From an uncultured candidatus Porisulfidus sp. (lineage in GTDB: Bacteria; Pseudomonadota; Gammaproteobacteria; Poriferisulfidales; Oxydemutatoraceae), in NCBI GenBank assembly GCA_965215125.1, contig OZ244052.1, positions 1,242,468 through 1,306,467 of the forward strand: DNA of 64,000 nt, written 5' to 3'. Position 1 is the first letter of the stretch. Every line of letters begins with the position of its first letter. Shown one piece after another: positions 34,610 to 56,800 of the stretch. The position numbers and the translations under genes are program-made. The notes beneath the pieces were generated by a model. That model did not search any database. It was not told where the DNA came from and was given only the letters and a program-made list of their open reading frames with translations.

Positions 34610-36160
34610 ATGACTCATTCCCGACAAAACATGACTGATATATTTTCAGGCTATATTGAAGCAATTGAAAATTGCAAGGTCTACGATGTGGCCTCCGTTA
34701 CGGCACTGCAAGCTGCCCCCTATTTATCAAATCGCTTCGGGCAAAACATACTTTTGAAACGAGAAGACCAACAGTCGGTTTTCTCGTTTAAACTGCGGGG
34801 CGCATACAACAAAATTGCTCAATTATCGGATAAAGAAAAACAGGCGGGTATCGTCGCCGCTTCGGCGGGTAACCATGCGCAGGGAGTTGCGTTGGCAATC
34901 CAAAGATTGGGTGTCAAAGCAATTATCGTTATGCCGTTGACTACGCCGATGATTAAAGTCAAGGCGGTTGCACTGTTCAACCCGGATATTGTGCGGCACG
35001 GAGACACCTACGACGAGGCATATGCATATGCAGTCAAACTCGCCGCAAAACACGGCTACACTTTCGTACATCCGTACGACGACCCGCAAGTAATCGCCGG
35101 GCAGGGCAGCATCGGCATGGAGATACATCGGCAATGCAAAGAGTCCATAGACGCTGTCTTTGTTCCGGTCGGCGGCGGCGGGTTGATTGCCGGGGTCTCG
35201 CTGTATTTGAAAAAATTCCGCCCGCAAACAAAAATCATCGGGGTTGAGCCCGATGATGCGGCAACCTTATATACTGCCCTGCAGCATGGTAAGGCTGTCA
35301 CGCTGGATAAAGTCGGATTATTCTCCGACGGTACTGCGGTACGATGCATCGGCGAAGAGACTTTCAGAATCTCAAAAGCGTTGGTGGACGAAGTTATATT
35401 GGTCAACACCGATCAGATATGTGCTGCGATCAAAGATAATTTTGACGAAAATCGCACCTTGCTGGAGCCCGCCGGTGCGTTATCGATAGCAGGCTTAAAA
35501 CGCTATATCGCTAAGTACCGATGTCTCAATGAAACTTTGGTCGCTATCGCTTCGGGAGCGAATATCAATTTTGACCGCCTGAAGCATGTTGTCGAACGTT
35601 ATGAGATTGGCGAGGGCACCGAATCCTTGTTGTCAGTGACAATACCGGAGCGACCGGGCAGTTTTGTCGACTTTTGTCGGACTATAGGCAAGCGAAAACT
35701 TACCGAGTTTAATTATCGTTATTCCGACAATGCCGAAGCCCGAGTATTTGTCGGCTTAGAGTTTGAGAATCTCAAGCGCGACAAACCCGAGACCATTGCC
35801 TCATTGCGGCGCAAAGGCTATGAAGTCGTCGATCTCTCGGATAACGAAATGGCAAAACTACATATACGACACATGGTCGGCGGGCATCTGCAAGATAAGC
35901 AAGAAAACGAGCAATTATGTCGTTTTCAATTCCCGGAAAGACCGGGTGCGTTGCTGGAATTTTTGGAGTATTTTGCCACCCAAGACCTGAATATCAGCCT
36001 ATTCCATTTTTCCAGCCACGGTTCGGAATATGGACGCATACTGGTCGGTGTGCAAGTACCGTCCAATAAAATAGATCACTTCAAAAAAGCGATGCGGGAG
36101 TCTCGTTACCAATATCAGGACGAGTCGGATAATCCCGCGTATCAACTATTTTTACGCTAG
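34610..36160 (+). CDS. ilvA: Biosynthetic threonine dehydratase (two C-terminal ACT-like domains)
   Basis: KREDQQSVFSFKLRGAYN (PLP Lys), SAGNHAQGVA and VPVGGGGLIAG motifs. C-terminal regulatory repeats end in NPAYQLFL. Start at 34610 or 34631. Confidence 0.93.
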   Translation: MTHSRQNMTDIFSGYIEAIENCKVYDVASVTALQAAPYLSNRFGQNILLKREDQQSVFSFKLRGAYNKIAQLSDKEKQAGIVAASAGNHAQGVALAIQRLGVKAIIVMPLTTPMIKVKAVALFNPDIVRHGDTYDEAYAYAVKLAAKHGYTFVHPYDDPQVIAGQGSIGMEIHRQCKESIDAVFVPVGGGGLIAGVSLYLKKFRPQTKIIGVEPDDAATLYTALQHGKAVTLDKVGLFSDGTAVRCIGEETFRISKALVDEVILVNTDQICAAIKDNFDENRTLLEPAGALSIAGLKRYIAKYRCLNETLVAIASGANINFDRLKHVVERYEIGEGTESLLSVTIPERPGSFVDFCRTIGKRKLTEFNYRYSDNAEARVFVGLEFENLKRDKPETIASLRRKGYEVVDLSDNEMAKLHIRHMVGGHLQDKQENEQLCRFQFPERPGALLEFLEYFATQDLNISLFHFSSHGSEYGRILVGVQVPSNKIDHFKKAMRESRYQYQDESDNPAYQLFLR

Positions 36161-36444
36161 CTTTTTGCAGTTGCCAAACCGGATATCGCTTTTTTGACCG
36201 AATAGATTAAAAAGATTGCAATCATGACCAGCAATGCCCCGGTGAAAAAGCTAAGTGCGTATAAAGAGATGACGCCACCGATAGCGGCTAATAATATAAC
36301 TGTGTTTATGGTGCCCAATAGTCCTTGGACGAAGTTTCTTTGCATTTTATCTATTAGATTATTAAAAAATAGAAATACGAACCACATAATTATTATCAGC
36401 ACACTACATACTAAAAAATAAAACAAATGCATTAAAAAATCCAT
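36157..36444 (-). CDS. Small membrane protein, unknown function
   Basis: 95 aa with three hydrophobic segments. AAGGAGA Shine-Dalgarno 7 nt upstream of the ATG. Overlaps the ilvA stop by 4 nt. Confidence 0.45.
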   Translation of the reverse strand: MDFLMHLFYFLVCSVLIIIMWFVFLFFNNLIDKMQRNFVQGLLGTINTVILLAAIGGVISLYALSFFTGALLVMIAIFLIYSVKKAISGLATAKS

Positions 36445-36514
36445 AATCGATCTCCTTGAGTTAAACGGTATTTTCGATGTTCCATAATATCATAATTAGT
36501 ATCGTTCACTCATT

Positions 36515-37773
36515 GGGAATTATATAGATAACTTGACAGATTTATTAGACCGCCTTGCTACCCTATCTTTTTGACGCTTCACAGACCAGCCAACGCTGCA
36601 ATCTCCACGCCCGGTTGCGGTATTCCCGACCGCCAAAATGTTTAATGCAGCATTGACATCTGCATTGTCCTCGTGTCCGCAGTGCCGACACTTGAATATC
36701 GCTTGTGTTTTGCGGTTCGCTTTATCTACGCTTCTGCACTTGTTGCAGGTTTGACTTGTATATGCTGGATTGACCTTTCCTACATATGCTTTGTAGCTTA
36801 AGCATTGCTCCAGTTTATACCAGCCACTCTTTAGTATCTCTCTGTTCAAACCTGACTTCGCTCCCACATTCTTGCCCGGGCTGTCTATCGTCCCCTTCGC
36901 CGACTTCGTCATGCCTGCTGTATTCAGTCCTTCCATATAGACGATGTCGTATTTGTCCGCTATTAGCTTGCTGGTTTTATGACACCAATTCGCCCTCGTA
37001 AATCGCTCCGCTTGATACGCTTTCTGTAATTTATACTTCGCTAGCTTACGCCTGTTGCTTCCCTTAACCCGTCTAACAACCATTCGCTGATAACGCTTGC
37101 GTCTTGCTTCCTTACGCTGTAAGTCGGGTAGGTAATACATGGTCCCGTCCGACAATGCTATCTGTCCCACATTCCTATCCAAACCCACTTCCTTTAGCAT
37201 CTGCGATTTGTCCGCTAGCTCCACTTCATAGCAAATATATGCATACCAATTACCACATTCATACTTGACTTGACCCGATACAAACTTCTCACCTTTATAC
37301 CTATCACCACCGGCAAACTTCATCCAGCCTACCTTCTGTATATACAAGTGACAACCCGATAGTTTTGCCGATTGATAATTGATTGGGAATGACGGGCTAT
37401 GCGTATATTTGCCGTGAAACTTCGGCAATCCGTTGTTGCTCTTGAAAAATCCTTTGTATGCTATCTCTATCGGTTGTAATGATGATTTCACGATATAAGC
37501 GGAATAACCTTGCAACCACTTGTCGCAATGCTTTCGCAATGTCGTAAATTGCTTGCCTAGGGTGAAAAAGCTAAACCGGCTCTCGCCATAATACTCGTAT
37601 TCATCCTTTAACTCAGCTACAAAGTGATTCCAAACATAACGACACGCTCCGGCAGTTCCGTGTAATTGCCGATGCTTTTCATAGGTCGCTGGATACAAGC
37701 GATATCTGATTGTTCTATGAGTTTTCATCGATGTAATTTAACATTTCTTTGTCAAGTTATCTATATAATTCCC
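36515..37773 (-). mobile_element. TnpB-only element copy 1 (1259 bp) with 24/25-bp terminal inverted repeats and 8-bp target duplication
   Basis: IR GGGAATTATATAGATAACTTGACA(G) at 36515-36539. Its reverse complement is at 37750-37773. Direct repeat CACTCATT at 36507-36514 and 37774-37781. Confidence 0.85.
36520..37728 (-). CDS. tnpB: TnpB (OrfB_IS605-type RuvC/zinc-ribbon RNA-guided nuclease family)
   Basis: RTIRYRLYP start, RuvC-I GLDRNVG, RuvC-II DIVYMEGLN, zinc ribbon CNKC...CRHC, RuvC-III DNADVNAALNI. The last four codons and the stop lie inside the terminal IR. Confidence 0.9.
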   Translation of the reverse strand: MKTHRTIRYRLYPATYEKHRQLHGTAGACRYVWNHFVAELKDEYEYYGESRFSFFTLGKQFTTLRKHCDKWLQGYSAYIVKSSLQPIEIAYKGFFKSNNGLPKFHGKYTHSPSFPINYQSAKLSGCHLYIQKVGWMKFAGGDRYKGEKFVSGQVKYECGNWYAYICYEVELADKSQMLKEVGLDRNVGQIALSDGTMYYLPDLQRKEARRKRYQRMVVRRVKGSNRRKLAKYKLQKAYQAERFTRANWCHKTSKLIADKYDIVYMEGLNTAGMTKSAKGTIDSPGKNVGAKSGLNREILKSGWYKLEQCLSYKAYVGKVNPAYTSQTCNKCRSVDKANRKTQAIFKCRHCGHEDNADVNAALNILAVGNTATGRGDCSVGWSVKRQKDRVARRSNKSVKLSI

Positions 37774-37841
37774 CACTCATTTATCCGAGAATTATATACT
37801 TTAAGTATGTAAATCATGTTTTACCGATTTCCACTTTGTTT

Positions 37842-38375
37842 TTAGTTCCTTTTAAGCCACTTACATGCTAATCCATAAGTTGTAACTTGAGGCTCAACAT
37901 TCTTCTTAGGGTGGATATTAGATTTTAGTATCTCAAATACAGGTTCGCTATCTAACCTAAACTTGATTTGTTTATAATGGCTTTTGCTATCATGTCTATC
38001 CTCAATCTGCCCTATTTGCTTATTATGCAATAATGAAAAAAACACTACTTTTTGATCATCCATTTGTTTACTGTGCCTGGCTTTAGAATTGCGGAGCGAG
38101 ACATTAGTGCATAAAGTGTCAACTACTTTATTCTTGTGGAATACATGAAAATGTTTTTTCTCTTTCAAGTCTTTTGCGAGACCAGGATATATACTAAGAT
38201 AATCGGCATTCCCACCATCAAATAATGCCTTAGCAAGTAATGATGCTAACATTTTTGGTTTGTTTAACTCTTCTAAGAGTCTTCTCATGTGTGGCTGAAG
38301 TCGTAGCTTTGCAGCTGTTTTATTAGAAAGATATTCATCATAAGTTGTTGGGTATGCATCAAGACAATCAATCAT
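37842..38375 (-). CDS. Hypothetical protein; candidate C-terminal part or second subunit of a restriction endonuclease
   Basis: 177 aa with no recognised motif. Sits 17 nt downstream of the 80-aa ORF, in a different frame, in the methyltransferase operon. Confidence 0.4.
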   Translation of the reverse strand: MIDCLDAYPTTYDEYLSNKTAAKLRLQPHMRRLLEELNKPKMLASLLAKALFDGGNADYLSIYPGLAKDLKEKKHFHVFHKNKVVDTLCTNVSLRNSKARHSKQMDDQKVVFFSLLHNKQIGQIEDRHDSKSHYKQIKFRLDSEPVFEILKSNIHPKKNVEPQVTTYGLACKWLKRN

Positions 38376-38392
38376 TATGTTTGCAATGTTCC

Positions 38393-38635
38393 CTAATCCT
38401 TGAAAGATAGTGTTAGTTTTAAGGCGATTTTACTGTATAAGAAAATCTGCCACCGCTCCCCAGCTTTTACTGAGTGATACCTGTCTTGTTCATCCGCAAC
38501 ATCTTTTTTGTCTGTATGATGCCCTCTTTGTACATGACCACCAATTAGTTCAGCAAAATGCTCTTCATTTGCATGCCCAGCTCTTTTTACCATGCTTGCG
38601 TGTTCGCTGGTCATAGCTCTTCGTTTGGGCATCAT
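38393..38635 (-). CDS. Hypothetical protein with PD-(D/E)xK-like motif; candidate nuclease (N-terminal part or small subunit)
   Basis: 80 aa. ...TDKKDVADEQDRYHSVKAGERW resembles D-x(n)-(D/E/S)-x-K nuclease cores. Its start overlaps the methyltransferase stop by 4 nt. Confidence 0.4.
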   Translation of the reverse strand: MMPKRRAMTSEHASMVKRAGHANEEHFAELIGGHVQRGHHTDKKDVADEQDRYHSVKAGERWQIFLYSKIALKLTLSFKD

Positions 38636-39558
38636 CCCAACACCAAGAGTTCATGTGAATGTTTTATATGATTGTTTGTTCCGTTCTCTATTCTATTCTT
38701 ACCTATCCTTGTTTCACCTTGCCCTAGGGTGTATTGCCACTTTACTTCTATAATATTAAAATCAGAATACCAGTCTCTTATCGTCTCACAATCATTATAT
38801 GAAAGAATAAACCCGCCCTCATGCTGATATAATAAATCGCGCAACAGTTCATGATTGAATTGGTTATGGTGAACAGGGAAGTTTCTTTGTGGATATATTC
38901 CCTTAAACATCTTGCTATTACCATTCAAATAATAAGGGGGGTCACAATACATGAACGAATCTATGTGTTGAGGTATAGTTCTACTAAAGTTCCCCGAACA
39001 TACCGATAGATTGGGACAAGTGAAGTTTCTAACTTTATCAAGCAACCTAATATATCTGCTCTCTTCTTCGTATATTTTTGACATCCAACCTAAAAAACCA
39101 GGTCCGTAAGATAGATTATGATTAAACCAATAATGGGCAGCTAAAGATACTTTGTCCTCTATTTTTTGTGACTTGTCCCAATGCTTACGAAGTCTGTTCT
39201 TTACTTGTGAATATTTACTCTTTGTTGGTTTCCATTTGCACAAGCGGCTATATAGTTCTAATGGTTTCTTTAGTTGTATTTGCCAGTAATTTGTTAATAT
39301 ATTGAAAACATCATAACCTTTGACTTTTAACCCTAGCTCTTTGGCGCAAGCAATTTCAACACTTCCACCACCAAAAAACGGAGATACTAATGAAGTAATA
39401 TCAGGTGGCAGATGTTCTATTATGTGTCCAACAGCAAGGGTTTTACCACCAGCATATCGCAATGGTAGCCCATTATACCTAGAATACTTATATTTGCCTT
39501 TTCCATTAAGCCTATTTAATAAAAGGCTTTGCCTAGTGTCCGGCTTTAATGCAAACAT
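38632..39558 (-). CDS. DNA N6-adenine methyltransferase, D12 (Dam) class
   Basis: LRYAGGKTLAV (SAM/FxGxG-equivalent region of Dam family), PFFGGGSVEI, and catalytic YCDPPYY. Confidence 0.85.
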   Translation of the reverse strand: MFALKPDTRQSLLLNRLNGKGKYKYSRYNGLPLRYAGGKTLAVGHIIEHLPPDITSLVSPFFGGGSVEIACAKELGLKVKGYDVFNILTNYWQIQLKKPLELYSRLCKWKPTKSKYSQVKNRLRKHWDKSQKIEDKVSLAAHYWFNHNLSYGPGFLGWMSKIYEEESRYIRLLDKVRNFTCPNLSVCSGNFSRTIPQHIDSFMYCDPPYYLNGNSKMFKGIYPQRNFPVHHNQFNHELLRDLLYQHEGGFILSYNDCETIRDWYSDFNIIEVKWQYTLGQGETRIGKNRIENGTNNHIKHSHELLVLG

Positions 39559-39587
39559 GGTGACTACTTTATCAGTTTTTTATAAAG

Positions 39588-39875
39588 TTAATCTCTTGCC
39601 TCACGGACACGCCGAAGCATAAACCAAAACGACTTCTGAGTAATACCTAGTTCCTTTGATAGCTGTAAAGACGATATACCCTTTCGCGCGGTCACTACCA
39701 AATAAATCGCTATATCCCAGCATTGCAAAGGTAGTAGCGATCTGTTCATTTCGCTATCGGTTTTTATCGTAAATGCTCTGCGACAACGATTGCAGTAATG
39801 ATTGTACTTTCTAGGTTTGTATATTTTAACCTTCTCTATTTTTTTACATTTAGGACAGATAGGTTTGCTTCCCAA
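39588..39875 (-). pseudogene. N-terminal fragment (95 aa) of an IS1595-family transposase; DDE domain missing
   Basis: Zinc ribbon CPKC...CNRC followed by an HTH (ISSLQLSKELGITQKSFWFMLRRVREA), typical of the IS1595/ISXO2-like N-terminus. The ORF stops where the catalytic domain should begin. Confidence 0.65.
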
Positions 39876-40092
39876 ATCACACCTTCAATCTACCTAACTG
39901 CTTTTGTTTCAGTAGAAAATATTTTAAGTAATTCAGCTATGCTGATTGTTTGAGTCGTGTGTTTCAATTTCATCTCCATATTTTGCATACTAAAATATCA
40001 AAAATGGAAATAGTGTCAAGTGTCTTACAGATTTTATTTTCAATATTTTTAGTAGGATTTTTACATACTTAAGTATATGATTCTATTTATTT

Positions 40093-40953
40093 TTAACGGG
40101 GTGTGTCGGTTTTTGCGTTTTTCCATCGCCAGCGAGGTTGTCCCCAATACCAGTTTGCAGGAGCCTGTTTTAAGCCTTGTGCTAACTTTTGCGTGTATGA
40201 TGTCAGCAAGGCTCTTTCGTGTCCTTCGCCTTGGTTTTCAATAGGTTCAAGATAGATTCTATAATATCCCTTTTTAATTTTTTCGGTTCTTACGAAGAAC
40301 ACAGCGCATTGTGCCGTGCAGGCAAGCTGTGCGGTGCCCGAGTAAAAATCGGTATGTTGTCCTCCTAGCCATTTCAATTCAATGGATTTTTGGTGACGAT
40401 CGGGTTCACGGTCCGATAATACATAAAAAAAGCATCGTTGCTTGCGATGTTTTACTAGCGTTTTCACAAATTGTTTATGGGGTAGCGGCGTGCCACCGAA
40501 GCAGCTTCTTATGGTATACACCAAACGCTCCAGATGAGGCGATCTTAGGGGTTTGTAGACACCGTAGAAAGGATGCCCGCAATGCAAAAATAGTACTTGA
40601 GCCGCCCATTCCCAGTTGCTTTGATGGCTGGATAATAACAGCACCGGTCGGTTTGTATCGACATCGTCTAAGAGGTCGGGATTCATCAAACGAGCACGCT
40701 TTTGCAACCATTGTTTTCTGCACGATAACAGTTTCACCGTTTCAACCAAAAACTCGGTTTGTAAGAAATAATATCTTCTGCATAAAGCACGAATCTCGTT
40801 TGCGTCATACTCGGGGAATGCTCCGTACAGATTATTTAATACTACCGTACGTTTAGCGCGTAGGATATAGCAATTAAAGGCGGCTAATAACCAAGCAATC
40901 GCATAGAGCAACGATAACGGCAGGCGAGATATAAGAACAGCTAAGCGCATCAT
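40093..40953 (-). CDS. lpxL: Lipid A biosynthesis late acyltransferase (LpxL/LpxM family)
   Basis: N-terminal TM segment, LLLSSHQSNWEW (Hx4E acyltransferase motif), and C-terminal PANWYW. Confidence 0.8.
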   Translation of the reverse strand: MMRLAVLISRLPLSLLYAIAWLLAAFNCYILRAKRTVVLNNLYGAFPEYDANEIRALCRRYYFLQTEFLVETVKLLSCRKQWLQKRARLMNPDLLDDVDTNRPVLLLSSHQSNWEWAAQVLFLHCGHPFYGVYKPLRSPHLERLVYTIRSCFGGTPLPHKQFVKTLVKHRKQRCFFYVLSDREPDRHQKSIELKWLGGQHTDFYSGTAQLACTAQCAVFFVRTEKIKKGYYRIYLEPIENQGEGHERALLTSYTQKLAQGLKQAPANWYWGQPRWRWKNAKTDTPR

Positions 40954-41652: not shown

Positions 41653-42927
41653 ATGGAGTGGCAGGTTTCACAGTACCCTCGATTATCGGCACAAACCGTT
41701 GAGTTTGCTAATAAGCTAACTCATAAAGCATCAAACCATTTAGAATTTATCTCGGGTGGGCAGCCGTATGTGCTATGCCCCGATACCACAGTACCGTCTG
41801 CCGAGTTTCCTGCCGCCGTGCAGTGCAGTATCAACGGACACAGTGTGCGGTTCGGTCTTGATTCCGGTGTGTGCGCTTTCCTGTTGTCGGATTGGCTACC
41901 GCTAGAGGATGTTGCGGCGTTGCCGGATAATTTGAAAAAATCGGTCATAATAGCCGTCTTAAATCCAATTGCCGATTTTTTTTCTCAACATTCCGTCGGA
42001 AGTTTTAATGTGGAAGACATTGAATGTCAATCTGCCTATCCGTCCCACTCAAGTTTATTTTTTAACCTATCGTCCATGAACGGAACTGTAGTTGGTCGGA
42101 TATTTGTCAATGTTGATGAGCAAACGACGGACATGCTACATAAAATATGGCAGGCTACTGCGAAACCTGCACCGCTCGGCAATACCGAAGAATTACCTGT
42201 TTGGGTTGAAGTTATTGCTGCCGGCACAAAGCTGAGCTTGAATGAATTTAGTGAATTAAGGAAAGACGATATTATTTTGCTCGATATGGCATTTTCGGAA
42301 CTAAAAGAAGTCTATGCTAGAATTAGTGATAATATATGCTTTTCATCCGTAATTGATGGAAACAAGTTAATAATTCAAAAACCGGGAGGGGTCGTAATGG
42401 CAAGTGACACACAACCGCCGATAGACCGAAATATTGAAGATCAGGCAATTGATGAAGAGATTGCCTTAGGCGAAGACCAAATGCCATTTTCTAATGAAGA
42501 CGAACCCGACGAGGAATCGTTGGATGAGCCTTCTATGGGTGCGGAAAATTCCGACGAGGAATCGCTGGATGCGTCTTCTGTGGAAACAGAAAATTCTGTT
42601 GAAGAGCCTTTTGATACACTACTTTCCGGCGAGACATCCCCAGCTGTATCCGAGGCTGCCGATAGCAAACGAACCGTCTCTCAATTGAACGATCTAGGAG
42701 AGTTGCCGGTAGAATTGTTGTTCATCGTAGATCAATTCAAGACGACCGTGAAAGAGGTTGAGCGTATCAAGCCGGGCTATGTATTTGAATTGAAAAATAA
42801 AGCGATAGGGCAAGCCGAGATTCGTGCCAACGGGACACTCATCGGTGTCGGTGAGTTGGTACAAATCGAGGACCGTGCGGGCGTGCGCGTCATAAAGTTG
42901 TACGGACAGACGAATACCGAAAAATGA
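41653..42927 (+). CDS. sctQ: Type III secretion cytoplasmic-ring protein SctQ (YscQ/SpaO/HrcQ family) with acidic repeat insertion
   Basis: C-terminal SpoA domain (LPVELLFIVDQFKTTVKEVERIKPGYVFEL...IRANGTLIGVGELVQIEDRAGVRVIKL). N-terminal PRLSAQTVEFANKL. Followed by sctRSTU. Confidence 0.8.
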   Translation: MEWQVSQYPRLSAQTVEFANKLTHKASNHLEFISGGQPYVLCPDTTVPSAEFPAAVQCSINGHSVRFGLDSGVCAFLLSDWLPLEDVAALPDNLKKSVIIAVLNPIADFFSQHSVGSFNVEDIECQSAYPSHSSLFFNLSSMNGTVVGRIFVNVDEQTTDMLHKIWQATAKPAPLGNTEELPVWVEVIAAGTKLSLNEFSELRKDDIILLDMAFSELKEVYARISDNICFSSVIDGNKLIIQKPGGVVMASDTQPPIDRNIEDQAIDEEIALGEDQMPFSNEDEPDEESLDEPSMGAENSDEESLDASSVETENSVEEPFDTLLSGETSPAVSEAADSKRTVSQLNDLGELPVELLFIVDQFKTTVKEVERIKPGYVFELKNKAIGQAEIRANGTLIGVGELVQIEDRAGVRVIKLYGQTNTEK

Positions 42928-43046
42928 CTAATCAACCACTGCCGGTGGCAAAGTGCTACTTAATTAAAAGACGACACTAGTCGCATGATAAAGGGGGGGA
43001 AATTCTTGTATATACTCGTTGAGCGAGCTTGTGGAGGGGACTTCTG

Positions 43047-43697
43047 ATGGAAGGTCTGCCTTCTCCTTTTACGTTAATCCTGATTATAGGTGCGATAGGG
43101 ATCATGCCGTTTGTGATTGTTATGGCAACTTCTTTTGCCAAGTTAGTTATAGTCTTTTCATTGATACGCAACGCTTTGGGTATTCAACAAATACCTCCGA
43201 ATACGGCTTTGAACGGTTTGGCTCTGATATTAACGGTATATATCATGATGCCGGTCGTTATCGCAAGCTACGAAGTTATTGCGAGGGAAGACCTACGCTT
43301 GGACGATAAAGAGTCGGTAATACAGGTTTTTAAGGAGGCGTCGGAACCGTATCGCAACTTTCTGCGCAAACACAGCGACCCTAGAGAGAGAGAGTTTTTT
43401 ATGGAGACTGCATACAATTTGTGGGGATACGAACATGTAGAGGAAATGACGGAAGACAATTTATTAATTCTAATGCCGTCTTTCACCGTGAGCGAGTTGA
43501 CCACTGCCTTTGAAATAGGTTTTTTAATTTACCTGCCGTTTATAGTTATAGACTTGATCGTGTCCAATATCCTTTTGGCGATGGGTATGATGATGGTCTC
43601 ACCGATGACTATATCCTTGCCGTTCAAGCTACTTTTGTTTGTTTTTCTTGACGGCTGGACCTATCTTATTCACGGTTTGGTGCTTTCTTATCAATAG
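43047..43697 (+). CDS. sctR: Type III secretion export-apparatus protein SctR (FliP/YscR family)
   Basis: IMPFVIVMATSFAKLVIVFSLIRNALGIQQIPPN and FLIYLPFIVIDLIVSNILLAMGMMM. Start moved to the ATG preceded by GGAGGGG. 216 aa with no FliP-type long signal peptide. Confidence 0.9.
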   Translation: MEGLPSPFTLILIIGAIGIMPFVIVMATSFAKLVIVFSLIRNALGIQQIPPNTALNGLALILTVYIMMPVVIASYEVIAREDLRLDDKESVIQVFKEASEPYRNFLRKHSDPREREFFMETAYNLWGYEHVEEMTEDNLLILMPSFTVSELTTAFEIGFLIYLPFIVIDLIVSNILLAMGMMMVSPMTISLPFKLLLFVFLDGWTYLIHGLVLSYQ

Positions 43698-43699
43698 TC

Positions 43700-43969
43700 A
43701 TGACCGAAGGTGAAATAGTCCAACACGCCAGTAATGCGATGCTACTCGTGCTGATGTTATCGATGCCGCCGATTGTCGTAGCGGCGTTGGTGGGTTTGAT
43801 AGTTAGTCTGATTCAGGCTTTGACGCAAATACAAGAGCAGACTATATCTTTTGCATTTAAGCTCATCGCAATAGTCGTCACGATGTTTTTAACTATGGGT
43901 CAATTAGGAGAGGAATTGTTTGCCTACGGTGAGATTTCCTTCCGCAAGATTTCCGAGGTTGTCTTTTAA
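43700..43969 (+). CDS. sctS: Type III secretion export-apparatus protein SctS (FliQ/YscS family)
   Basis: 89 aa with two TM segments. SLIQALTQIQEQTISFAFKL motif. Confidence 0.9.
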   Translation: MTEGEIVQHASNAMLLVLMLSMPPIVVAALVGLIVSLIQALTQIQEQTISFAFKLIAIVVTMFLTMGQLGEELFAYGEISFRKISEVVF

Positions 43970-44769
43970 TGGAAGTGTTGACTGCTCTTTTCAAAGACTA
44001 TATCGCTATCTATAGTTTGGCGTTACCGAGGCTTATCAGTATCTTTGCCATGCTCGCCTTTTTAAGCCAGCAGACTCTAGGCGGTGCTTTGACGAGAAAC
44101 GGCATACTGCTTAGTTTGGCACTGGTGTTGCATCCTGTAGTTTCTGCCGAAATGGAAACTTTGGATTCACTACCGCACGGGATTTTGTTATTAATTATTA
44201 TTAAAGAGACACTTATAGGTGTGGTTATGGGTTTTTCGGTTGCCTTAATATTTTGGTCGGTAGAGGCGGTCGGTGCTTTTATAGACAACCAGCGCGGTGC
44301 CACTATGGCAAGTTCTATGGATCCTCTGAGCGGCGATCAATCCTCACCGATGGGTACTTTTTTTGTCAACACGATTACCGCAATATTTTTCGTCACCGGA
44401 TTATTTTCCATGTTCATGGCAAACGTTTATGCGAGTTATAAGATATGGCCGGTTACATCTTTTTTCCCCGATCTGAATTTTGATTTGGTGATTTTTTTAC
44501 TCAAGCATTTCGGGCAAATTGTCCTTCTAGCCGTGCTGTTGGGCGCGCCGATAATTATTGCGATGTTTGTGGCAGAATTCGGTTTGATGCTAATCGGTCG
44601 TTTTGCACCGCAGCTCAATATCTTTTTTATGTCTATGTCTATAAAGAGCGCGGTATCCAATTTTATGTTGGTGATATTTTTGGGAATAATGGTTGCCTTT
44701 TTTAGTACCAAGTTGGGAACTATAACCGAGATTTACGCAGAATTGAACGAAGTATGGAGTGAACGATGA
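43969..44769 (+). CDS. sctT: Type III secretion export-apparatus protein SctT (FliR/YscT family)
   Basis: 266-aa polytopic protein in the canonical position between sctS and sctU. Confidence 0.85.
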   Translation: MEVLTALFKDYIAIYSLALPRLISIFAMLAFLSQQTLGGALTRNGILLSLALVLHPVVSAEMETLDSLPHGILLLIIIKETLIGVVMGFSVALIFWSVEAVGAFIDNQRGATMASSMDPLSGDQSSPMGTFFVNTITAIFFVTGLFSMFMANVYASYKIWPVTSFFPDLNFDLVIFLLKHFGQIVLLAVLLGAPIIIAMFVAEFGLMLIGRFAPQLNIFFMSMSIKSAVSNFMLVIFLGIMVAFFSTKLGTITEIYAELNEVWSER

Positions 44770-45809
44770 GCGGTAGTAGCGGTAATAAGACCGAACCTCC
44801 TACGCAGAAAAGGCTGCGCGACGCGCGTAAAAAGGGGCAAGTTGCCAAAAGCAAAGAGGTGGTTAGTGCTTCGCTAATTATTTTTCTACTCGGTTATTTG
44901 TGGCTCTCCAGCGATTACTACATGGAGAAATTTCGCCAGCTGATCGCCCTGCCGGTGACTACCTATGGTATTGATTTTGACGCGGCACTGGGCGAAATAA
45001 TAGTAGAGACTTTCAAGTTTGCAGTTGTTTTGGTTTTGCCGGTAGTCGGTATCGCGCTGATAGTCGGTATCGCCGCTAATTTTTTGCAAATCGGTGCGTT
45101 GTTTGCACCGGAAGTGATTAAAGAGGCCCCTAAAAAGCTCAATCCCGGCAAGGCGTTGAAAAATATATTTTCTAGAAAAAATTTCATTGAATTAATTAAA
45201 TCTATTCTCAAGATTGTATTTCTAGGGTATTTGATCTACTTGGCATTGCGCCACAATATTGGTAATTTAATCGGAATCCCAAACTGCGGATTAGCATGTT
45301 TGTTGCCGATATTCGGTAACCTGATGGGAAAGATTATCACCTATGCAATCATCGCATTTATAATCGTTGCGGTTGCCGATTATTTTTTTCAGAAATTCGA
45401 TTACATCAAAAACCTGAAGATGACCAAAGACGAAGTCAAACGGGAGTTTAAGGAAATGGAGGGCAGCCCGGAAATAAAAAGCCATCGTCGCCAATTATTT
45501 CAAGAAATCGTCAACAGCCAAGTTGCTAATAATGTGAGCCGCTCAAGCGTTATTATCACCAACCCCACCCGCATGGCAATCGGCATCTATTACGATGAGG
45601 AAGAGACACCCTTGCCCGTGGTGACCCTGAAGGAACAAGGGACGATGGCAAAACGCGTCATAGAAATCGCCCGTGAAAAGGGCATCCCGGTGATGGAAAA
45701 TGTGCCGCTTGCACATGCACTGATGGATCAAGCCGATATCAACCAGTACATTCCGTCCGATTTAATCAAACCGATTGCCGAAGTGCTGCGTGTTATAAAA
45801 GAGCTCTAG
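44766..45809 (+). CDS. sctU: Type III secretion substrate-specificity switch protein SctU (FlhB/YscU family), autocleavage motif reads NPTR
   Basis: N-terminus KTEPPTQKRLRDARKKGQVAKSKE, four TM segments, and C-terminal domain ...VIITNPTRMAIGIYYDEEETPLPVV... Confidence 0.9.
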   Translation: MSGSSGNKTEPPTQKRLRDARKKGQVAKSKEVVSASLIIFLLGYLWLSSDYYMEKFRQLIALPVTTYGIDFDAALGEIIVETFKFAVVLVLPVVGIALIVGIAANFLQIGALFAPEVIKEAPKKLNPGKALKNIFSRKNFIELIKSILKIVFLGYLIYLALRHNIGNLIGIPNCGLACLLPIFGNLMGKIITYAIIAFIIVAVADYFFQKFDYIKNLKMTKDEVKREFKEMEGSPEIKSHRRQLFQEIVNSQVANNVSRSSVIITNPTRMAIGIYYDEEETPLPVVTLKEQGTMAKRVIEIAREKGIPVMENVPLAHALMDQADINQYIPSDLIKPIAEVLRVIKEL

Positions 45810-45812
45810 CAA

Positions 45813-45922
45813 CCCTCTTGAAGGGATGGCAGGCGCGATAGAACCGCCGTTTGTTGCAGTAGCACAAACGGCGTGACATTGTGCAGAACCTTAACACATA
45901 TTGCAAAATGTAAAGCCTTTCG
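45813..45922 (-). repeat. Copy B of the two-copy structured intergenic element (10-bp-stem hairpin, loop GCTACTGCA on the minus strand)
   Basis: The minus strand aligns with 19004-19086. Hairpin CGCCGTTTGT-TGCAGTAGC-ACAAACGGCG at 45845-45873. Begins 4 nt after the sctU stop. Confidence 0.6.
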
Positions 45923-48741: not shown

Positions 48742-50010
48742 GGGAATTATATAGGTAACTTGACAGACTTTTTAGCCTGCCTTGCCCACCCTATCTTTTT
48801 GACGCTTCATTGACCGACTTGTGTTGCCACTGTCGCCGTCTCCACACCCGGTTGCAGTACTCCCAGCCGCCAAAACGTTTAATGCAGCATTTACATCCGC
48901 ATTGTCCTCGTGTCCACAATACCGACACTTGAAAATTGATCGGGTCTTACGGCTTGCTTTATTTACGCTTCCGCATTGATTACAGGTTTGACTCGTATAG
49001 GCCGGATTGACCTTTTCTATACATGCCTTGTAGCTTAAGCATTGCTCCAGTTTATACCAGCCACTCTTTAGTATCTCCCTGTTCAAACCTGATTTTGCCC
49101 TCACATTCTTACCCGGGTTGTCTATCGTCCCCTTCGCCGACTTCGTCATGCCGGTTGTATTCAATCCTTCCATATACACAATGTCGTATTGGTCTGCTAT
49201 TAACCGGCTGGTTTGATGACACCAATTCGCCCTCGCAAACCGCTCCGCTTGATACGCTTTCCGTAGCCTATGTTTTGCTAGTTTGCGCCTGTTGCTCCCC
49301 TTCACCCGTCTAGCAACCATTCGCTGATAACGCCTACGCCTTGCCTCCTTACGCTTTAAGTCGGGCAGGTGATACATCGTTCCGTCCGACAATGCCACCT
49401 GACCACAATTCCTATCTAGTCCTACTGCTGCCACTGGATGCGACCTGCTTGGCACTTCCACTTCATAGGTGATATATGCATACCATTTACCACATTCATA
49501 CTTGACTTGACCGGATACAAACTTCTCACCTTTATACCTATCGCCACCGGCAAACTTCATCCAGCCTAGCTTCTGTATATACAAGTGACAACCCGATATC
49601 TTTGCCGATTGATAATTGATCGGGAATGACGGGCTATGCGTATATTTGCCGTGAAACTTCGGCAATACGTTGTTGCCCTTGAAAAATCCTTTGTATGCTA
49701 TCTCTATCGGTTGTAATGATGATTTGACTATATAAGTGGAATAACCTTGCAACCACTGGTCGCAATACTTTCTTAATGTCGTAAATTGCTTGCCTAGGGT
49801 GAAATAGCTAAACCGGCTCTCGCCGTAATACTCGTATTCGTCCTTCAGCTTGGCTACAAAGTGATTCCAGACATAGCGGCATGCGCCTGCTGTGCCGTGT
49901 AATTGCCGGTGTTTTTTCTGTGTCGCCGGATATAAATGGTATCTAATTGTTCTATGGGTTTGCATTGATATAATTTAACATTTCTTTGTCAAGTTAACTA
50001 TATAATTCCC
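48742..50010 (-). mobile_element. TnpB-only element copy 2 (1269 bp) with terminal inverted repeats and 7/8-matching 8-bp target duplication
   Basis: IR GGGAATTATATAGGTAACTTGACAG at 48742-48766. Its inverted copy is at 49987-50010 (one internal mismatch). Flanks are TAGCTAAT (48734-48741) and TCGCTAAT (50011-50018). Confidence 0.85.
48772..49965 (-). CDS. tnpB: TnpB (second, diverged copy; catalytic motifs intact)
   Basis: About 85 percent identical by eye to the copy at 36520-37728. GLDRNCG, DIVYMEGLN, CNQC...CRYC and DNADVNAALNV are conserved. The C-terminal tail differs (ends ...DRVGKAG). Confidence 0.9.
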   Translation of the reverse strand: MQTHRTIRYHLYPATQKKHRQLHGTAGACRYVWNHFVAKLKDEYEYYGESRFSYFTLGKQFTTLRKYCDQWLQGYSTYIVKSSLQPIEIAYKGFFKGNNVLPKFHGKYTHSPSFPINYQSAKISGCHLYIQKLGWMKFAGGDRYKGEKFVSGQVKYECGKWYAYITYEVEVPSRSHPVAAVGLDRNCGQVALSDGTMYHLPDLKRKEARRRRYQRMVARRVKGSNRRKLAKHRLRKAYQAERFARANWCHQTSRLIADQYDIVYMEGLNTTGMTKSAKGTIDNPGKNVRAKSGLNREILKSGWYKLEQCLSYKACIEKVNPAYTSQTCNQCGSVNKASRKTRSIFKCRYCGHEDNADVNAALNVLAAGSTATGCGDGDSGNTSRSMKRQKDRVGKAG

Positions 50011-53885: not shown

Positions 53886-56800
53886 TTGGCACACAAAATA
53901 TTTATTCTATTGGCATTTTTTCTTTGTGCTATGCCATGGCAGTTTGCCGCGGCACAGACATCGCCTTTATCTCCTTGTTCGTCGACCGATATAGACAAGG
54001 ATAACGATGGGTTAATAGATATTTGCGATTTGGAGGGATTGAATGTCATTCGTTATCAACTGGACGGCACCGGTTATAAAGCCAACGAGTTGGCAGAGAA
54101 GATCACCGCAGGTTGTCCCGGTAATCGTTGTAGGGGTTATGAGCTGATGAGAGATTTAGATTTTCTAGATGCTAACAGTTATCGCAGTGGAGTAATTCGG
54201 AGGGATTGGGTGGTAGGTTCGGGTTGGCTACCGATCGGGAGTGTTGTAGCACCTTTCGGGAGTGGGAATGTGATCCAGGATAGTATGTTCGAAGGTAATG
54301 GTTATGCTATCCGAAATTTGATGATCAATAGGCCTAATAGCGATAATGTCGGTCTATTTGCTGTTAATGGTTTGGGGGGGGGAATTAAGGATATTCGGCT
54401 ACTGGATGTGAATATTCAGGGGAAATCAAGAGTAGGGGCTTTGGTTGCTCGTAACGAGCCCGGAAAAATTAGAAATAGCTATGTTAGCGGCAGTATAAGA
54501 GGTGTTTCTCGGATAGGTGCACTGGTTGGTTATAATAGTTTTACATCTCTTGCATCTCCCGTTCTTGAGAACAGTTCTGCCACCGGTGTTGTGATAGGAA
54601 CAGGCGATAAAGTGGGTGGTTTAGTAGGTAGCACTTATTCCACAATTAAAAATAGTCAAGCATTCAACACCGTATCAGGAGTTGCGGAAGTAGGTGGGTT
54701 AGTCGGAACAACTGCCGAAACTAGCCTCAGAACCGGTCAAATCATTAATAGTCGTGCAGTCGGGAATGTTACCGGAGTTAATAGCGTAGGTGGACTAATA
54801 GGTAGGGCTGGGACAGCATTCGGTTCTAATCCAGATAGCCCGTGGAGAATTATTAACAGTCATGCCACCGGGACGGTGGAAGGGCAAATCTGGGTAGGTG
54901 GATTAGTTGGTAATGCCGATATTATACACATTGAGAATAGTTCTGCTCATGGTGAAGTGATCGCAACAGGCTCGGCACAGTGGGCAGGTGGCCTAGTAGG
55001 TCTTATCAATAAAGAAGGCGGAAGGATTGATAAAAGCCATGCAACCGGAAGTGTGACAGGAATAAGGAGAGTGGGCGGTTTTTTGGGTGGGGCTACTGGA
55101 GTCCGTTTTGATGACAGCTATGCGACCGGTCGTGTGCAAGGAGGTCAGGGAAGCAGAGATGTTGGTGGTTTTACCGGAATTAGTTCAGGTGGTAGTATTA
55201 CCAATAGCTATGCAACCGGTATGGTGCAAGTACGCGGAAAAAGCGAAGACATTGGCGGTTTTATCGGGGAAAATGTGGGAACACATATTATGAATAGTTA
55301 TGCTATCGGTAATGTACGAGGAGGTCAAGGAAGTTCAGGAGTAGGCGGCCTTATCGGGAGTACTGAGAGGGTAAATATTATCAATGGCTATGCGACCGGT
55401 CGTGTGCAAGGAGGTCAGGGAAGCAGAGATGTTGGTGGTTTTATCGGAATTAGTTCGGGTGGTATTATTAGAAATAGTCATGCTACCGGCGATGTGGAGG
55501 GAGGCGGTAGAGTCGGTGGTTTTGTCGGACAAAGTGAGGGAACACGCATTATGAATAGTTATGCGGCTAGCCATGTGCGAGGAGACGGAACCGTTGGCGG
55601 TTTTATCGGAGATAGTTCAGCTGTTATTACCAATAGTTATGCGACCGGTCATGTGGAGGGAGGCGGTAGAGTCGGTGGTTTTGTCGGATTTCATGACAAT
55701 GGTAGTATTACAAATAGCTATGCTATCGGCAATGTGGCATCGGGGCGCGATGCTGGCGGTTTTGTCGGATTTCATAACAATGGTAGTATTACAAATAGCT
55801 ATGCTATCGGCAATGTGAAAGCGGAACGCGCTAGCGGTTTTAACGCAGGTGGTTCAGGTTTTATTACAAATAGCTATTGGGATAGGCAGACCAGCGGTAG
55901 AACGAGTAGTGTCGGTGGCAGAGGCAAGACGACTTCGGAGTTGCAATTGCCCACGACATCGACCGGGATATATAGTAGCTGGGATGACGATGTATGGGAT
56001 TTCGGTACATCCGAACAATACCCTGCTCTCAAGTATAGTGATGGCACATTGCAGCCGAACCAGCGTTTCGGTTTGCTCCGAGTAGGTTTGCCGAGTGGCT
56101 TGATATTGTCGCCGTCTTTTAAGTCCGAAGTATTAAGTTATCGCGTTATAGGCGAGACCGGCATAAGGCAAATCCGTCTGACCCCAATTGCTGCTAACTT
56201 TGATGCCGATATTATTATTGAAAGTAGTGGAGGTTTCAGAGAACGGATGCCGAGTGGTACTACGAGTTCCGAGATTTCATTGAACACCGCCGGTGTTACC
56301 ACGGCTACCGTTGAAGTGCGAACACCCTATGATGTACCGATCCGATATACACTTGCCTTTAACGATAGAACTTTTAACGAGGGTGAGCGCATTATATTAG
56401 AGAGAATAACCGCTCGAGATGTAGATGACAGTGTATTGCGTTATAAATGGACACAAACATCGGGAATGCTTCGTCTACTACCGGTGGAAGGAATTAGTCA
56501 AGCGGTTTTGGATGTACCGATACCCGAGCTTTTCCTGAGCGAAACCGAAGATGATCGTGAGATTACGATTAGATTGGAAATCAACGATGGCACGAAGACT
56601 GAGACTAAAGACCTAAGATTGACAATCGCTAAGGCGGATAATGGTACCGCAGTACAGTCGGATCCTATTATTACACGATCGGATAGAACATTAACTGCCC
56701 CCGAAGTAGACTTGTCAACAGACCCGGACGGTTCCGGCACGATAAATAGTTATTTGTGGCAACGGCGAGCGAATATAAACGCCGATTGGATAGACATAGA

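What the first reader, a model, noticed from the sequence alone, without database searches (positions are those of the whole stretch)
37788..40084. Restriction-modification-like cassette inside an IS1595-type shell whose terminal bases match the TnpB-element termini
Seen directly:
- Imperfect ~26-bp inverted repeats (AGAATTATATACTTTAAGTATGTAAA and AGAATCATATACTT-AAGTATGTAAA on the opposite strand) enclose four co-oriented ORFs.
- The ORFs are a 95-aa zinc-ribbon/HTH fragment of an IS1595-family transposase with the DDE domain gone, a Dam-class methyltransferase (RYAGGK, DPPY), and two unknown ORFs.
- The first ~12 nt of these repeats (GAGAATTATATA) closely resemble the first 12 nt of the TnpB-element IR (GGGAATTATATA).
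- TnpB copy 1 sits only 6 bp outside the left repeat.
- A degenerate possible TSD is present (ATTTATCC and ATTTATTT, 6 of 8 matching).

Inference:
- One transposase lineage (IS1595 family, which is known to carry passenger genes) may mobilise both a defence-type cassette and the TnpB elements.
- This copy is now non-autonomous.
Basis: partly seen in the sequence, partly recalled or inferred. Interest (0 to 1): 0.7.

Follow-up and report, generated by a model that had tools for sequence, protein, structure and literature searches.

The report
Decayed IS1595 transposon carrying restriction-modification genes
This is a worn-out IS1595-family jumping gene that carries a DNA methylase and restriction enzyme pair as cargo, and the neighbouring TnpB (RNA-guided nuclease) elements use the same kind of ends, so one transposase family very probably moves both.

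Summary
The 25/26-nt inverted repeats at 37787/8-37813 and 40060-40084/5 are real. They match the ends of IS1595-family transposase elements in other genomes.

The repeats enclose three genes, not four:
- an N-terminal IS1595 transposase remnant, which carries an in-frame stop and a frameshift and has lost its DDE domain;
- an intact D12/Dam-class methyltransferase;
- one restriction-endonuclease gene with a HinP1I-like fold. A missing A in an A5 run splits it into the 80-aa and 177-aa ORFs. It is intact in a sister genome.

Relatives show the parent architecture: IR, transposase, methyltransferase, endonuclease, IR. Full-length transposases of this subgroup have ends GGGAATTATATACTTGAC with perfect 8-bp target duplications. 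They repeatedly carry unrelated R-M systems.

The TnpB elements are not IS605-like. They have 24-nt terminal inverted repeats of the same end family. Ten of 19 relatives have perfect 8-bp duplications.

A relative has an empty lpxL-ilvA site, so the block is an insertion. The cassette's own target duplication is not convincing.

Both ideas have precedent (R-M units in an IS1595-like shell; DDE-associated TnpB), so this is a new member of known kinds.

One extra: the two-element block is about 99.4% identical to the sister genome, while flanking genes are 83-92% identical.

The parts
40060..40085 (-). Terminal inverted repeat of the R-M element on the transposase side. Read inward it is TAGAATCATATACTTAAGTATGTAAA.
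   Evidence: It matches the end of the IS1595 transposase element L001 (GGGAACTATATACTTAAGTATGCAAA). It lies 106 nt upstream of the transposase ATG, compared with 110 nt in L002.
39588..39979 (-). N-terminal remnant (zinc ribbon plus HTH, about 125 codons) of an IS1595-family transposase. It is a pseudogene with an in-frame TAG and a frameshift near the start, and the whole DDE domain is deleted. The 95-aa ORF is 39588-39875.
   Evidence: The same lesions occur in the sister genome L007, where a zinc-ligand Cys is also replaced by Phe.
38632..39558 (-). Intact D12 (Dam/DpnM) class N6-adenine DNA methyltransferase, 308 aa.
   Evidence: Pfam PF02086, E=3.6e-33. TIGR00571 dam. PDB Dam and DpnM relatives. 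Homologues in L003 and L005 have the same length.
37842..38635 (-). Type II restriction endonuclease gene of about 264 codons. A 1-nt deletion in an A5 run near 38395 splits it into the 80-aa and 177-aa ORFs.
   Evidence: It is intact at 264 aa in L007. It always sits next to the D12 methyltransferase. An AlphaFold model of an 88%-identical homologue has pLDDT 92. The top Foldseek PDB match is HinP1I (E=9e-6, probability 1.0). E23, D44, D47 and K56 are invariant within the S54-V55-K56 motif.
37787..37813 (+). Terminal inverted repeat on the cargo side, GAGAATTATATACTTTAAGTATGTAAA. It lies 28 nt beyond the endonuclease stop codon.
36515..37773 (-). TnpB element copy 1 (1259 bp). The tnpB gene is 36520-37728 (402 aa). 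It has perfect 24-nt terminal repeats (36515-36538 and 37750-37773) and a perfect 8-bp duplication, CACTCATT (36507-36514 and 37774-37781). It inserted 5 nt from the R-M element's end.
   Evidence: The terminal repeat overlaps the tnpB stop codon.
48742..50010 (-). TnpB element copy 2. The tnpB gene is 48772-49965 (397 aa). Its terminal repeats each differ by one base from those of copy 1. The 8-bp duplication is TAGCTAAT / TCGCTAAT (7 of 8).
   Evidence: The closest copy in the sister genome (L010, 94.7%) lies at a different locus.
36478..40131 (.). Tract that is about 99.4% identical to the sister genome. It covers both elements plus 37 nt and 46 nt of flank, and sits within chromosome that is only 83-92% identical.

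Best explanation
Positions 37787-40085 are a decayed, non-autonomous IS1595-family 'transporter IS'. Its ancestor had the order IR, transposase (about 305 aa: zinc ribbon, HTH, DDE), D12 m6A methyltransferase, HinP1I-fold type II endonuclease, IR. It moved by DDE transposition and made 8-bp target duplications.

In this lineage an internal deletion removed the DDE domain, and the remnant picked up a stop codon and a frameshift. The element can therefore move only if a related transposase acts in trans, or by homologous recombination. The methyltransferase is intact. The endonuclease is intact in the sister genome and frameshifted here, either truly or through a homopolymer sequencing error. 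This is the usual decay path towards an orphan methylase.

The two TnpB elements in the window belong to the same end family (GGGAATTATATA..., 8-bp duplications). They are best read as non-autonomous IS1595-ended elements whose only cargo is tnpB and its guide RNA, mobilised in trans by IS1595-family transposases rather than by an IS200/IS605 TnpA.

Shown here: the anatomy, the homologies, the end family, the duplications, the empty site and the recurrence of R-M cargo. Inferred: actual trans-mobilisation, enzyme activities and the order of decay steps.
For: Ends and anatomy.

Transposase remnant.

Parent architecture in relatives:
- L005 has the DDE C-terminus, the methyltransferase, the endonuclease and an IR.
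- L030 has an IR, an apparently uninterrupted full-length transposase frame and an immediately following beta-class methyltransferase.

Subgroup features. Eighty metagenomic full-length transposases were retrieved. Ten loci have GGGAATTATATACTTGAC-type repeats with perfect 8-bp duplications, and elements carry 0.75-3.2 kb of co-oriented cargo.

Unrelated R-M cargo in that subgroup:
- C5 methyltransferase plus an NgoBV endonuclease (L071);
- N6_N4 methyltransferase plus an MvaI/BcnI endonuclease (L103);
- C5 methyltransferases in L085 and L070, and by sequence clustering in L091.

Endonuclease identity.

Foreign origin. GC content is 35.5% against 45.5% for the flanks. An empty site exists in L122.

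TnpB elements:
- perfect repeats and duplications in the window;
- 10 of 19 relatives with 8 of 8 duplications;
- repeats matching IS1595 ends over up to about 24 nt;
- copies at different loci in sister genomes;
- dN/dS of 0.13-0.19 between copies.
Against: - No intact IS1595 transposase with these ends was found in the window. The source genome could not be scanned.
- The cassette's own target duplication is no better than chance, and both of its terminal GGG triplets are mutated (GAG and TAG).
- None of the 80 transposase loci carries tnpB. None of the TnpB loci has a transposase inside the same repeat pair, so the link rests on shared ends and duplications, not on a caught autonomous element.
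- In this window the TnpB repeats diverge from the cassette's repeats after 12 nt.
- The endonuclease frameshift lies in a homopolymer and may be an assembly error.
Confidence: 0.8

Rival explanations
1. The methyltransferase block is ancestral chromosome and the flanking inverted repeats are a chance or unrelated feature.
For: The cassette has no clean target duplication. The closest sister genome has the block at the same site.
Against: - An empty lpxL-orf93-ilvA site exists in L122.
- GC content is 10 points lower than the flanks.
- The repeats match the ends of IS1595 transposase elements elsewhere.
- The same cassette sits in unrelated contexts in L003, L005 and L006.
Confidence: 0.02
2. 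The cassette is a composite: an R-M pair trapped between two independent IS or solo ends, rather than cargo of a single unit transposon.
For: Only a transposase fragment remains, so unit structure cannot be read from this copy alone.
Against: - Relatives show a single repeat pair enclosing transposase plus co-oriented R-M genes with one 8-bp duplication.
- In L005 and L030 the methyltransferase starts 5 nt or less after the transposase stop codon.
- The spacing from the repeat to the transposase ATG equals that in intact elements.
Confidence: 0.05
3. The 95-aa zinc-ribbon/HTH remnant has been domesticated as a regulator of the R-M genes, like a C protein or IS1 InsA, rather than being dead.
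For: An open 95-aa frame with an HTH is retained immediately upstream of the methyltransferase in both sister genomes. IS1 InsA offers a precedent (own knowledge).
Against: - The natural start is destroyed by a stop and a frameshift, and the ORF begins at a TTG.
- In the sister genome a zinc-ligand Cys is replaced by Phe.
- The cassette lacks the remnant in L003 and L006.
- In L005 the opposite half of the transposase is retained.
Confidence: 0.05
4. The TnpB elements are ordinary IS200/IS605 (IS1341-type) elements moved by a Y1 TnpA, and the resemblance of their ends to the cassette's ends is coincidence.
For: TnpB matches IS200/IS605 TnpB models. In this window the shared stretch is only 12 nt.
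Against: - IS200/IS605 elements have no terminal repeats and no target duplications (PMC13565253). These elements have perfect 24-nt repeats and 8-bp duplications.
- Relatives' TnpB repeats match IS1595 ends over about 24 nt.
- With at most one mismatch, the 12-mer occurs only at element ends in the window.
Confidence: 0.03

Closest known systems
IS1595-family insertion sequences carrying passenger genes (ISfinder family; Siguier, Gagnevin and Chandler 2009, cited in PMC2853133 and PMC8101967)
   Same: The transposase has an N-terminal zinc ribbon and a DDE_Tnp_IS1595 domain. Ends begin with GG. Target duplications are 8 bp. Passenger genes lie downstream of the transposase inside the repeats.
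   Different: The window copy has lost the DDE domain and its terminal GGG. The subgroup consensus end GGGAATTATATACTTGAC and the recurrence of R-M cargo were derived here and were not checked against ISfinder entries. The 2009 paper could not be read.
Transposon-like R-M unit in Neisseria gonorrhoeae NCCP11945 (Furuta, Abe and Kobayashi 2010, PMC2853133)
   Same: R-M genes are flanked by 26-bp inverted repeats with an 8-bp target duplication, and the unit contains an inactivated transposase-like gene (COG3677). This is the same concept as the window element.
   Different: The R-M type differs: type IIG plus an S subunit there, a D12 methyltransferase plus a type IIP-like endonuclease here. 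That paper makes no link to TnpB elements. The window copy has no clean duplication.
DDE-transposase-associated TnpB branches (Altae-Tran et al. 2023, PMC10691335) and Fanzor in eukaryotic DDE transposons (PMC3627910, PMC10711439)
   Same: TnpB sits inside elements with symmetrical inverted terminal repeats. Solo TnpB copies carry ends nearly identical to those of transposase-bearing elements. The tnpB 3' end abuts the transposon end.
   Different: The families named in the literature I could read are IS630, ISL2 and IS1031. IS1595 is not mentioned. Here no transposase was seen inside the same repeat pair as tnpB.
HinP1I/MspI-type type IIP restriction endonucleases paired with Dam/DpnM-class methyltransferases
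   Same: The predicted fold matches HinP1I over the full length (Foldseek E=9e-6, TM 0.45-0.47). An N-terminal helix Glu, an Asp and an S-x-K motif are conserved. The methyltransferase aligns with Dam and DpnM structures.
   Different: Identity to HinP1I is only 14%. There is no Pfam or PDB sequence match. The recognition sequence is unknown. HinP1I's natural partner is a C5 methylase (own knowledge), not an m6A enzyme.

Membership tests
IS1595 family (for the R-M element) | Transposase with an N-terminal Zn_ribbon_IS1595 and HTH | tested here: met
   NCBIfam transpos_IS1595 positions 1-50, E=1.9e-10. The reconstructed remnant hits PF12760/PF12762 proteins at down to 4e-55 with 76% identity. 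Pfam alone is weak (E=0.2).
IS1595 family (for the R-M element) | DDE_Tnp_IS1595 catalytic domain | tested here: not met
   It is absent from the window copy. The remnant stops 30 nt before the methyltransferase ATG. It is present in related elements L005, L002, L030 and L039-L118. The window copy is therefore a deletion derivative, not an autonomous member.
IS1595 family (for the R-M element) | Terminal inverted repeats beginning 5'-GG | tested here: inconclusive
   The 25/26-nt repeats are present and match family ends, but the terminal bases are GAG and TAG instead of GGG.
IS1595 family (for the R-M element) | 8-bp target site duplication | tested here: inconclusive
   The window gives 6 of 8 only with asymmetric boundaries. 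Ten related transposase elements have perfect 8-bp duplications.
Type II restriction-modification system | DNA methyltransferase with SAM-binding and DPPY catalytic motifs | tested here: met
   PF02086, E=3.6e-33. The FFGGGS and DPPY motifs are in the translation.
Type II restriction-modification system | Adjacent endonuclease with a PD-(D/E)xK-type fold | tested here: met
   A high-confidence model of an 88%-identical homologue matches HinP1I. D44, D47 and K56 are invariant within the S54-V55-K56 motif. Adjacency to the methyltransferase is conserved in four independent contexts.
Type II restriction-modification system | Intact endonuclease reading frame | tested here: not met
   The window has a 1-nt deletion in an A5 run. 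The gene is intact in the sister genome L007. A sequencing error cannot be excluded.
Type II restriction-modification system | Demonstrated methylation and cleavage of a defined site | not testable with these tools
   This needs methylome data or enzymology.
IS200/IS605 family (for the TnpB elements) | TnpB RNA-guided nuclease | tested here: met
   NCBIfam guided_TnpB, E=5e-58. Pfam OrfB_IS605, Cas12f1-like_TNB and HTH_OrfB.
IS200/IS605 family (for the TnpB elements) | Asymmetric hairpin ends, no terminal repeats and no target duplication | tested here: not met
   The elements have perfect 24-nt terminal repeats and 8-bp duplications. The family definition comes from PMC13565253.
DDE-associated TnpB elements (Altae-Tran 2023) | Inverted terminal repeats shared between solo TnpB elements and elements bearing a DDE transposase | tested here: met
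   TnpB repeats match IS1595 transposase-element ends. Examples: L011-13 versus L005, L027-30 versus L030 and L002, and the window versus the subgroup consensus.
DDE-associated TnpB elements (Altae-Tran 2023) | tnpB and a DDE transposase inside one repeat pair in at least some members | tested here: not met
   No such case was found among 32 TnpB loci and 80 transposase loci. Sampling was limited.

The most novel reading that the evidence does not exclude
The IS1595-ended TnpB element acts as a homing device, which also explains how the dead R-M transposon next to it still spreads.

The whole two-element block is about 99.4% identical between two lineages whose flanking genes are only 83-92% identical. 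The identical tract stops just 37 nt and 46 nt beyond the elements.

One reading is that guide-RNA-directed TnpB cleavage of the empty allele, followed by repair from incoming donor DNA, copied TnpB and the adjacent R-M cargo into the same locus. That would be a bacterial counterpart of Fanzor in DDE transposons, with a defence cassette hitch-hiking.
Probability: 0.12. Interest if true: 0.8.

Novelty: new member of a known kind. Interest (0 to 1): 0.5.

Why it matters
The finding ties three kinds of selfish or defence modules to one machinery: a DDE transposase, R-M systems and TnpB RNA-guided nucleases. All use a single recognisable end family (GGGAATTATATA..., 8-bp duplications).

For R-M biology, it gives a concrete and repeatedly used vehicle for moving small type II systems.

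For TnpB/OMEGA biology, it adds IS1595 to the short list of DDE families that carry TnpB in bacteria. It also supplies a well-sampled clade (uncultured gammaproteobacterial MAGs: Oxydemutatoraceae, Porisulfidus, Chromatiales and unclassified) with clean repeats and duplications. That clade could be used to ask how a guide RNA whose 3' end crosses a terminal repeat and a duplication can support homing.

Practically, the end consensus allows these elements to be annotated. Current pipelines would label them as IS605-type TnpB, a 'hypothetical protein' and a transposase fragment.

Tried and rejected
- Pfam did not recognise the transposase fragment (E=0.2) or the endonuclease. NCBIfam and homologue searches were needed.
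- A PDB sequence-profile search for the endonuclease found nothing meaningful. Only the fold comparison worked.
- Rfam found no RNA family in 36000-40500, and only two tRNAs in the whole window.
- The right end of the L002 element was not found within the locus.
- I looked for a TAM-like motif upstream of the TnpB duplications. Nothing conserved was evident in 19 loci.
- I tested whether TnpB plus R-M could be one composite transposon using its outer ends. The outer 8-mers, CACTCATT and TTTATTTT, do not match, so I rejected this.
- L119 and L121, whose LpxL is closest to the window's, have a different gene neighbourhood downstream of lpxL. They gave no empty site. L122 did.
I therefore could not scan the source or sister genome for an intact IS1595 transposase.
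- The 2009 IS1595 paper and the supplements of the 2023 TnpB paper were not available. Whether IS1595 is among the published 'DDE' TnpB branches remains unchecked.
Full report
**1. The observation**

The sequence at 37788-37813 (AGAATTATATACTTTAAGTATGTAAA) and the reverse complement of 40060-40084 form inverted repeats. They differ by one mismatch and a 1-nt indel. No comparable match is expected by chance in shuffles of the window.

The enclosed DNA has 35.5% GC, against about 45.5% on both sides.

**2. What the genes are**

Transposase remnant.
- The 95-aa ORF matches the first 50 positions of NCBIfam transpos_IS1595 (E=1.9e-10). Pfam alone barely sees it.
- Translating upstream shows the true N-terminus (MEMKLKHTTQTISIAELLKIFSTETKAVR). 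It is followed by an in-frame TAG and then a frameshift into the 95-aa frame.
- The reconstructed 130-aa sequence hits 242 proteins carrying PF12760 and PF12762. The best is 76% identical.
- The remnant stops at about codon 125 of about 305, 30 nt before the next gene. The DDE domain is entirely gone.

Methyltransferase. The 308-aa protein is a D12 (Dam/DpnM) class enzyme. It matches PF02086 at E=3.6e-33 and has PDB relatives among the Dam and DpnM structures.

Endonuclease.
- The 80-aa and 177-aa ORFs are a single gene. Joined across the frameshift, they match about 261-aa single ORFs over 99% of their length in more than 120 database clusters.
- The lesion is the loss of one A from an AAAAA run that is intact in three relatives.
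- The family has no Pfam or PDB sequence match.
- An AlphaFold model of the 88%-identical P0121 is confident (pLDDT 92.3).
- Its only significant PDB fold match is the endonuclease HinP1I, over the full length (E=9.2e-6, probability 1.0, TM 0.45-0.47).
- E23, D44, D47 and K56 are invariant, the last within the S54-V55-K56 motif. This fits a PD-(D/E)xK-type site.
- The gene lies next to a D12 methyltransferase in every context examined.

The cassette is therefore a small type II R-M system. Its recognition site is unknown.

**3. The shell**

Relatives fill in what the window copy has lost.
- L001 encodes the closest transposase. Its element ends GGGAACTATATACTTAAGTATGCAAATCATC, nearly the window's repeat.
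- L002 begins GGGAATTATATACTTTAATCTGC, 110 nt upstream of its transposase. The window's spacing is 106 nt.
- L005 is from Chromatiales GCA_014323925.1. The same methyltransferase-endonuclease pair (92% and 75% aa identity) directly follows the C-terminal DDE part of an IS1595 transposase. The element ends GGGAATTATATACTATTCTGCAC.

The window keeps the N-terminal half of the transposase and L005 keeps the C-terminal half. The ancestor was therefore IR, transposase, methyltransferase, endonuclease, IR.

A metagenome scan with a transposase alignment returned 80 loci with full-length matches to the ~313-aa query transposase. Among them:
- Ten loci have repeats of the type GGGAATTATATACTTGACTCCC with perfect 8-bp duplications. 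An eleventh has 7 of 8.
- Elements carry 0.75-3.2 kb of cargo downstream of the transposase.
- Cargo includes unrelated R-M systems: a C5 methylase plus an NgoBV endonuclease (L071), and an N6_N4 methylase plus an MvaI/BcnI endonuclease (L103).
- C5 methylases occur in L085 and L070 by Pfam, and in L091 by sequence clustering with them.
- L030 has an apparently uninterrupted full-length transposase frame (tblastn), followed at once by a beta-class methyltransferase.

These properties fit the published definition of the IS1595 family: 8-bp duplications, GG ends, and a zinc-finger plus DDE_Tnp_IS1595 transposase (PMC8101967).

**4. Insertion or ancestral?**

A relative whose LpxL is 78% identical (L122) has lpxL, then 57 nt, then a 93-aa ORF, then ilvA and rpiA. 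It has neither element. Its sequence aligns to the window's flanks on both sides of the joined junction. The block is therefore an insertion.

The cassette's own target duplication cannot be recovered. The 6-of-8 match needs asymmetric boundaries, and both terminal triplets are mutated.

**5. The TnpB link**

Both TnpB elements in the window have 24-nt terminal inverted repeats, GGGAATTATATAG(A/G/T)TAACTTGACA. Their 8-bp duplications are CACTCATT/CACTCATT and TAGCTAAT/TCGCTAAT. IS200/IS605 elements have neither repeats nor duplications (PMC13565253).

Thirty-two related TnpB loci were recovered from uncultured gammaproteobacterial MAGs labelled Candidatus Oxydemutatoraceae, Porisulfidus, Chromatiales and unclassified Gammaproteobacteria. 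They show the same design.
- Nineteen have recognisable GGGAAT-type ends. Ten of these have perfect 8 of 8 duplications and two have 7 of 8.
- In several lineages the TnpB repeats match IS1595 ends well beyond 12 nt:
  - L011-13 GGGAATTATATACAATTCTGCACA versus the L005 R-M element GGGAATTATATACTATTCTGCACA;
  - L027-30 GGGAATTATATACTT(A/C)AGTCCGCA versus the transposase elements L030 and L002.
- In L030, a TnpB element and a transposase element with an apparently intact frame and the same first 15-16 nt lie 2.4 kb apart.

In the window, GGGAATTATATA with at most one mismatch occurs only at the four TnpB ends and the cassette's left end.

TnpB copies occupy different loci in sister genomes. They evolve under purifying selection, with dN/dS of 0.13-0.19 at dS up to 0.97. 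Their 3' 230 nt are strongly conserved, with a few compensatory pairs. This would be expected for an overlapping guide-RNA scaffold.

No locus has tnpB and the transposase inside one repeat pair. The TnpB elements therefore look like non-autonomous passengers of the IS1595 end family.

**6. Order of events at this locus**

The TnpB duplication is perfect. Removing the TnpB element restores ...GTTCACTCATTTATCC|GAGAATT... The R-M element therefore arrived first, and TnpB then inserted 5 nt from its end. The sister genome also has an IS1016-like IS just inside the other repeat (224-aa transposase, duplication TTTCAATA).

**7. An unexpected extra**

Against the sister MAG OZ244779.1, nucleotide identities are:

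| Segment | Identity |
|---|---|
| rpiA | 88.2% |
| ilvA | 91.8% |
| orf95 | 82.6% |
| lpxL | 83.2% |
| TnpB element | 99.4% |
| R-M element | 99.0-99.6% |

The identical tract includes 37 nt and 46 nt of flank and then ends abruptly.

The block, which is non-autonomous by transposition, has therefore recently moved between diverged lineages into the same site by homologous recombination. The co-conversion tracts are very short. Whether TnpB cleavage drove this (homing) is untested.

**8. Comparison with what is known**

- R-M units bounded by 26-bp inverted repeats, with 8-bp duplications and an inactivated COG3677 transposase, were described in Neisseria in 2010 (PMC2853133). Passenger genes are a known trait of IS1595-family elements.
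- TnpB inside DDE-type elements with inverted repeats is known, including solo TnpB copies that share ends with transposase-bearing elements (PMC10691335). A 2026 review names ISL2, IS630 and IS1031. I found no paper linking TnpB to IS1595.

The finding is therefore a correct and well-supported reading. It is a new member of known kinds rather than a new kind.

**9. Caveats**

- Mobilisation in trans is inferred from shared ends and duplications, not demonstrated.
- The source genome could not be scanned for an intact transposase.
- The endonuclease frameshift sits in a homopolymer and could be an assembly error.
- Enzyme activities and specificity are unknown.

Noticed in passing
window 36478-40131 versus L007 (OZ244779.1): The TnpB plus R-M block is about 99.4% identical between the two genomes, while flanking core genes are 83-92% identical. 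Perfect identity extends only 37 nt and 46 nt into the flanks. This indicates recent transfer of the whole block into the same locus by recombination, with very short conversion tracts.
   Followed up: partly
L007:929-1683 (corresponds to window about 40038-40045): The sister genome has an extra, apparently intact IS1016-group IS inserted just inside the R-M element's transposase-side repeat. It has a 224-aa transposase, repeats GGTACTTGACTAGTTTAGGGA and an 8-bp duplication TTTCAATA. Its repeat shares the 9-mer TACTTGACT with the subgroup consensus GGGAATTATATACTTGACTCCC.
   Followed up: partly
L003:2067-2846: In one metagenomic copy of the cassette, a second, paralogous endonuclease-like gene (34% identical, same D...SVK motif) follows the first. 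It lies inside the same AGAATTATATA-type end.
   Followed up: no
window 36515-36744 and 48742-48971 (minus strand); alignment A4: The last ~150 nt or so of the TnpB elements are far more conserved than expected for coding sequence, with a few compensatory base pairs. The terminal repeat overlaps the tnpB stop codon. A guide-RNA scaffold would therefore lie entirely inside the ORF and end in the repeat, with the 8-bp duplication as the first guide bases.
   Followed up: partly
Proteins P0001-P0120; L002:4660-4680: All of the 120 listed database homologues of the transposase N-terminus are 227 aa or shorter. Those I aligned (13 sequences) mostly break off within the DDE domain. In L002 the break is a frameshift in a G6 run. 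Long-read homopolymer errors or widespread pseudogenisation may explain this. A programmed frameshift as in IS1 was not examined.
   Followed up: no
window 45813-45921; also L008:1191-1299, L013:2968-3027, L119 and L121 downstream of lpxL: A short dispersed intergenic repeat containing GGCGTGACATTGTGCAGAACC recurs in several of these MAG genomes, up to 98% identical over 60 nt. It marks the synteny break next to lpxL in L119 and L121.
   Followed up: no
L030:9040-9070: A run of about 13 G interrupts the beta-class methyltransferase that follows the transposase. It is probably a long-read artefact or a phase-variable tract.
   Followed up: no
window 41653-45809 and 53886-63059: Next to lpxL lies a type III secretion or flagellar export cluster (FliMN_C, FliP, Bac_export_1-3, by orthology with L119 and L122). 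Further on is a 3057-aa ORF. Neither was examined.
   Followed up: no
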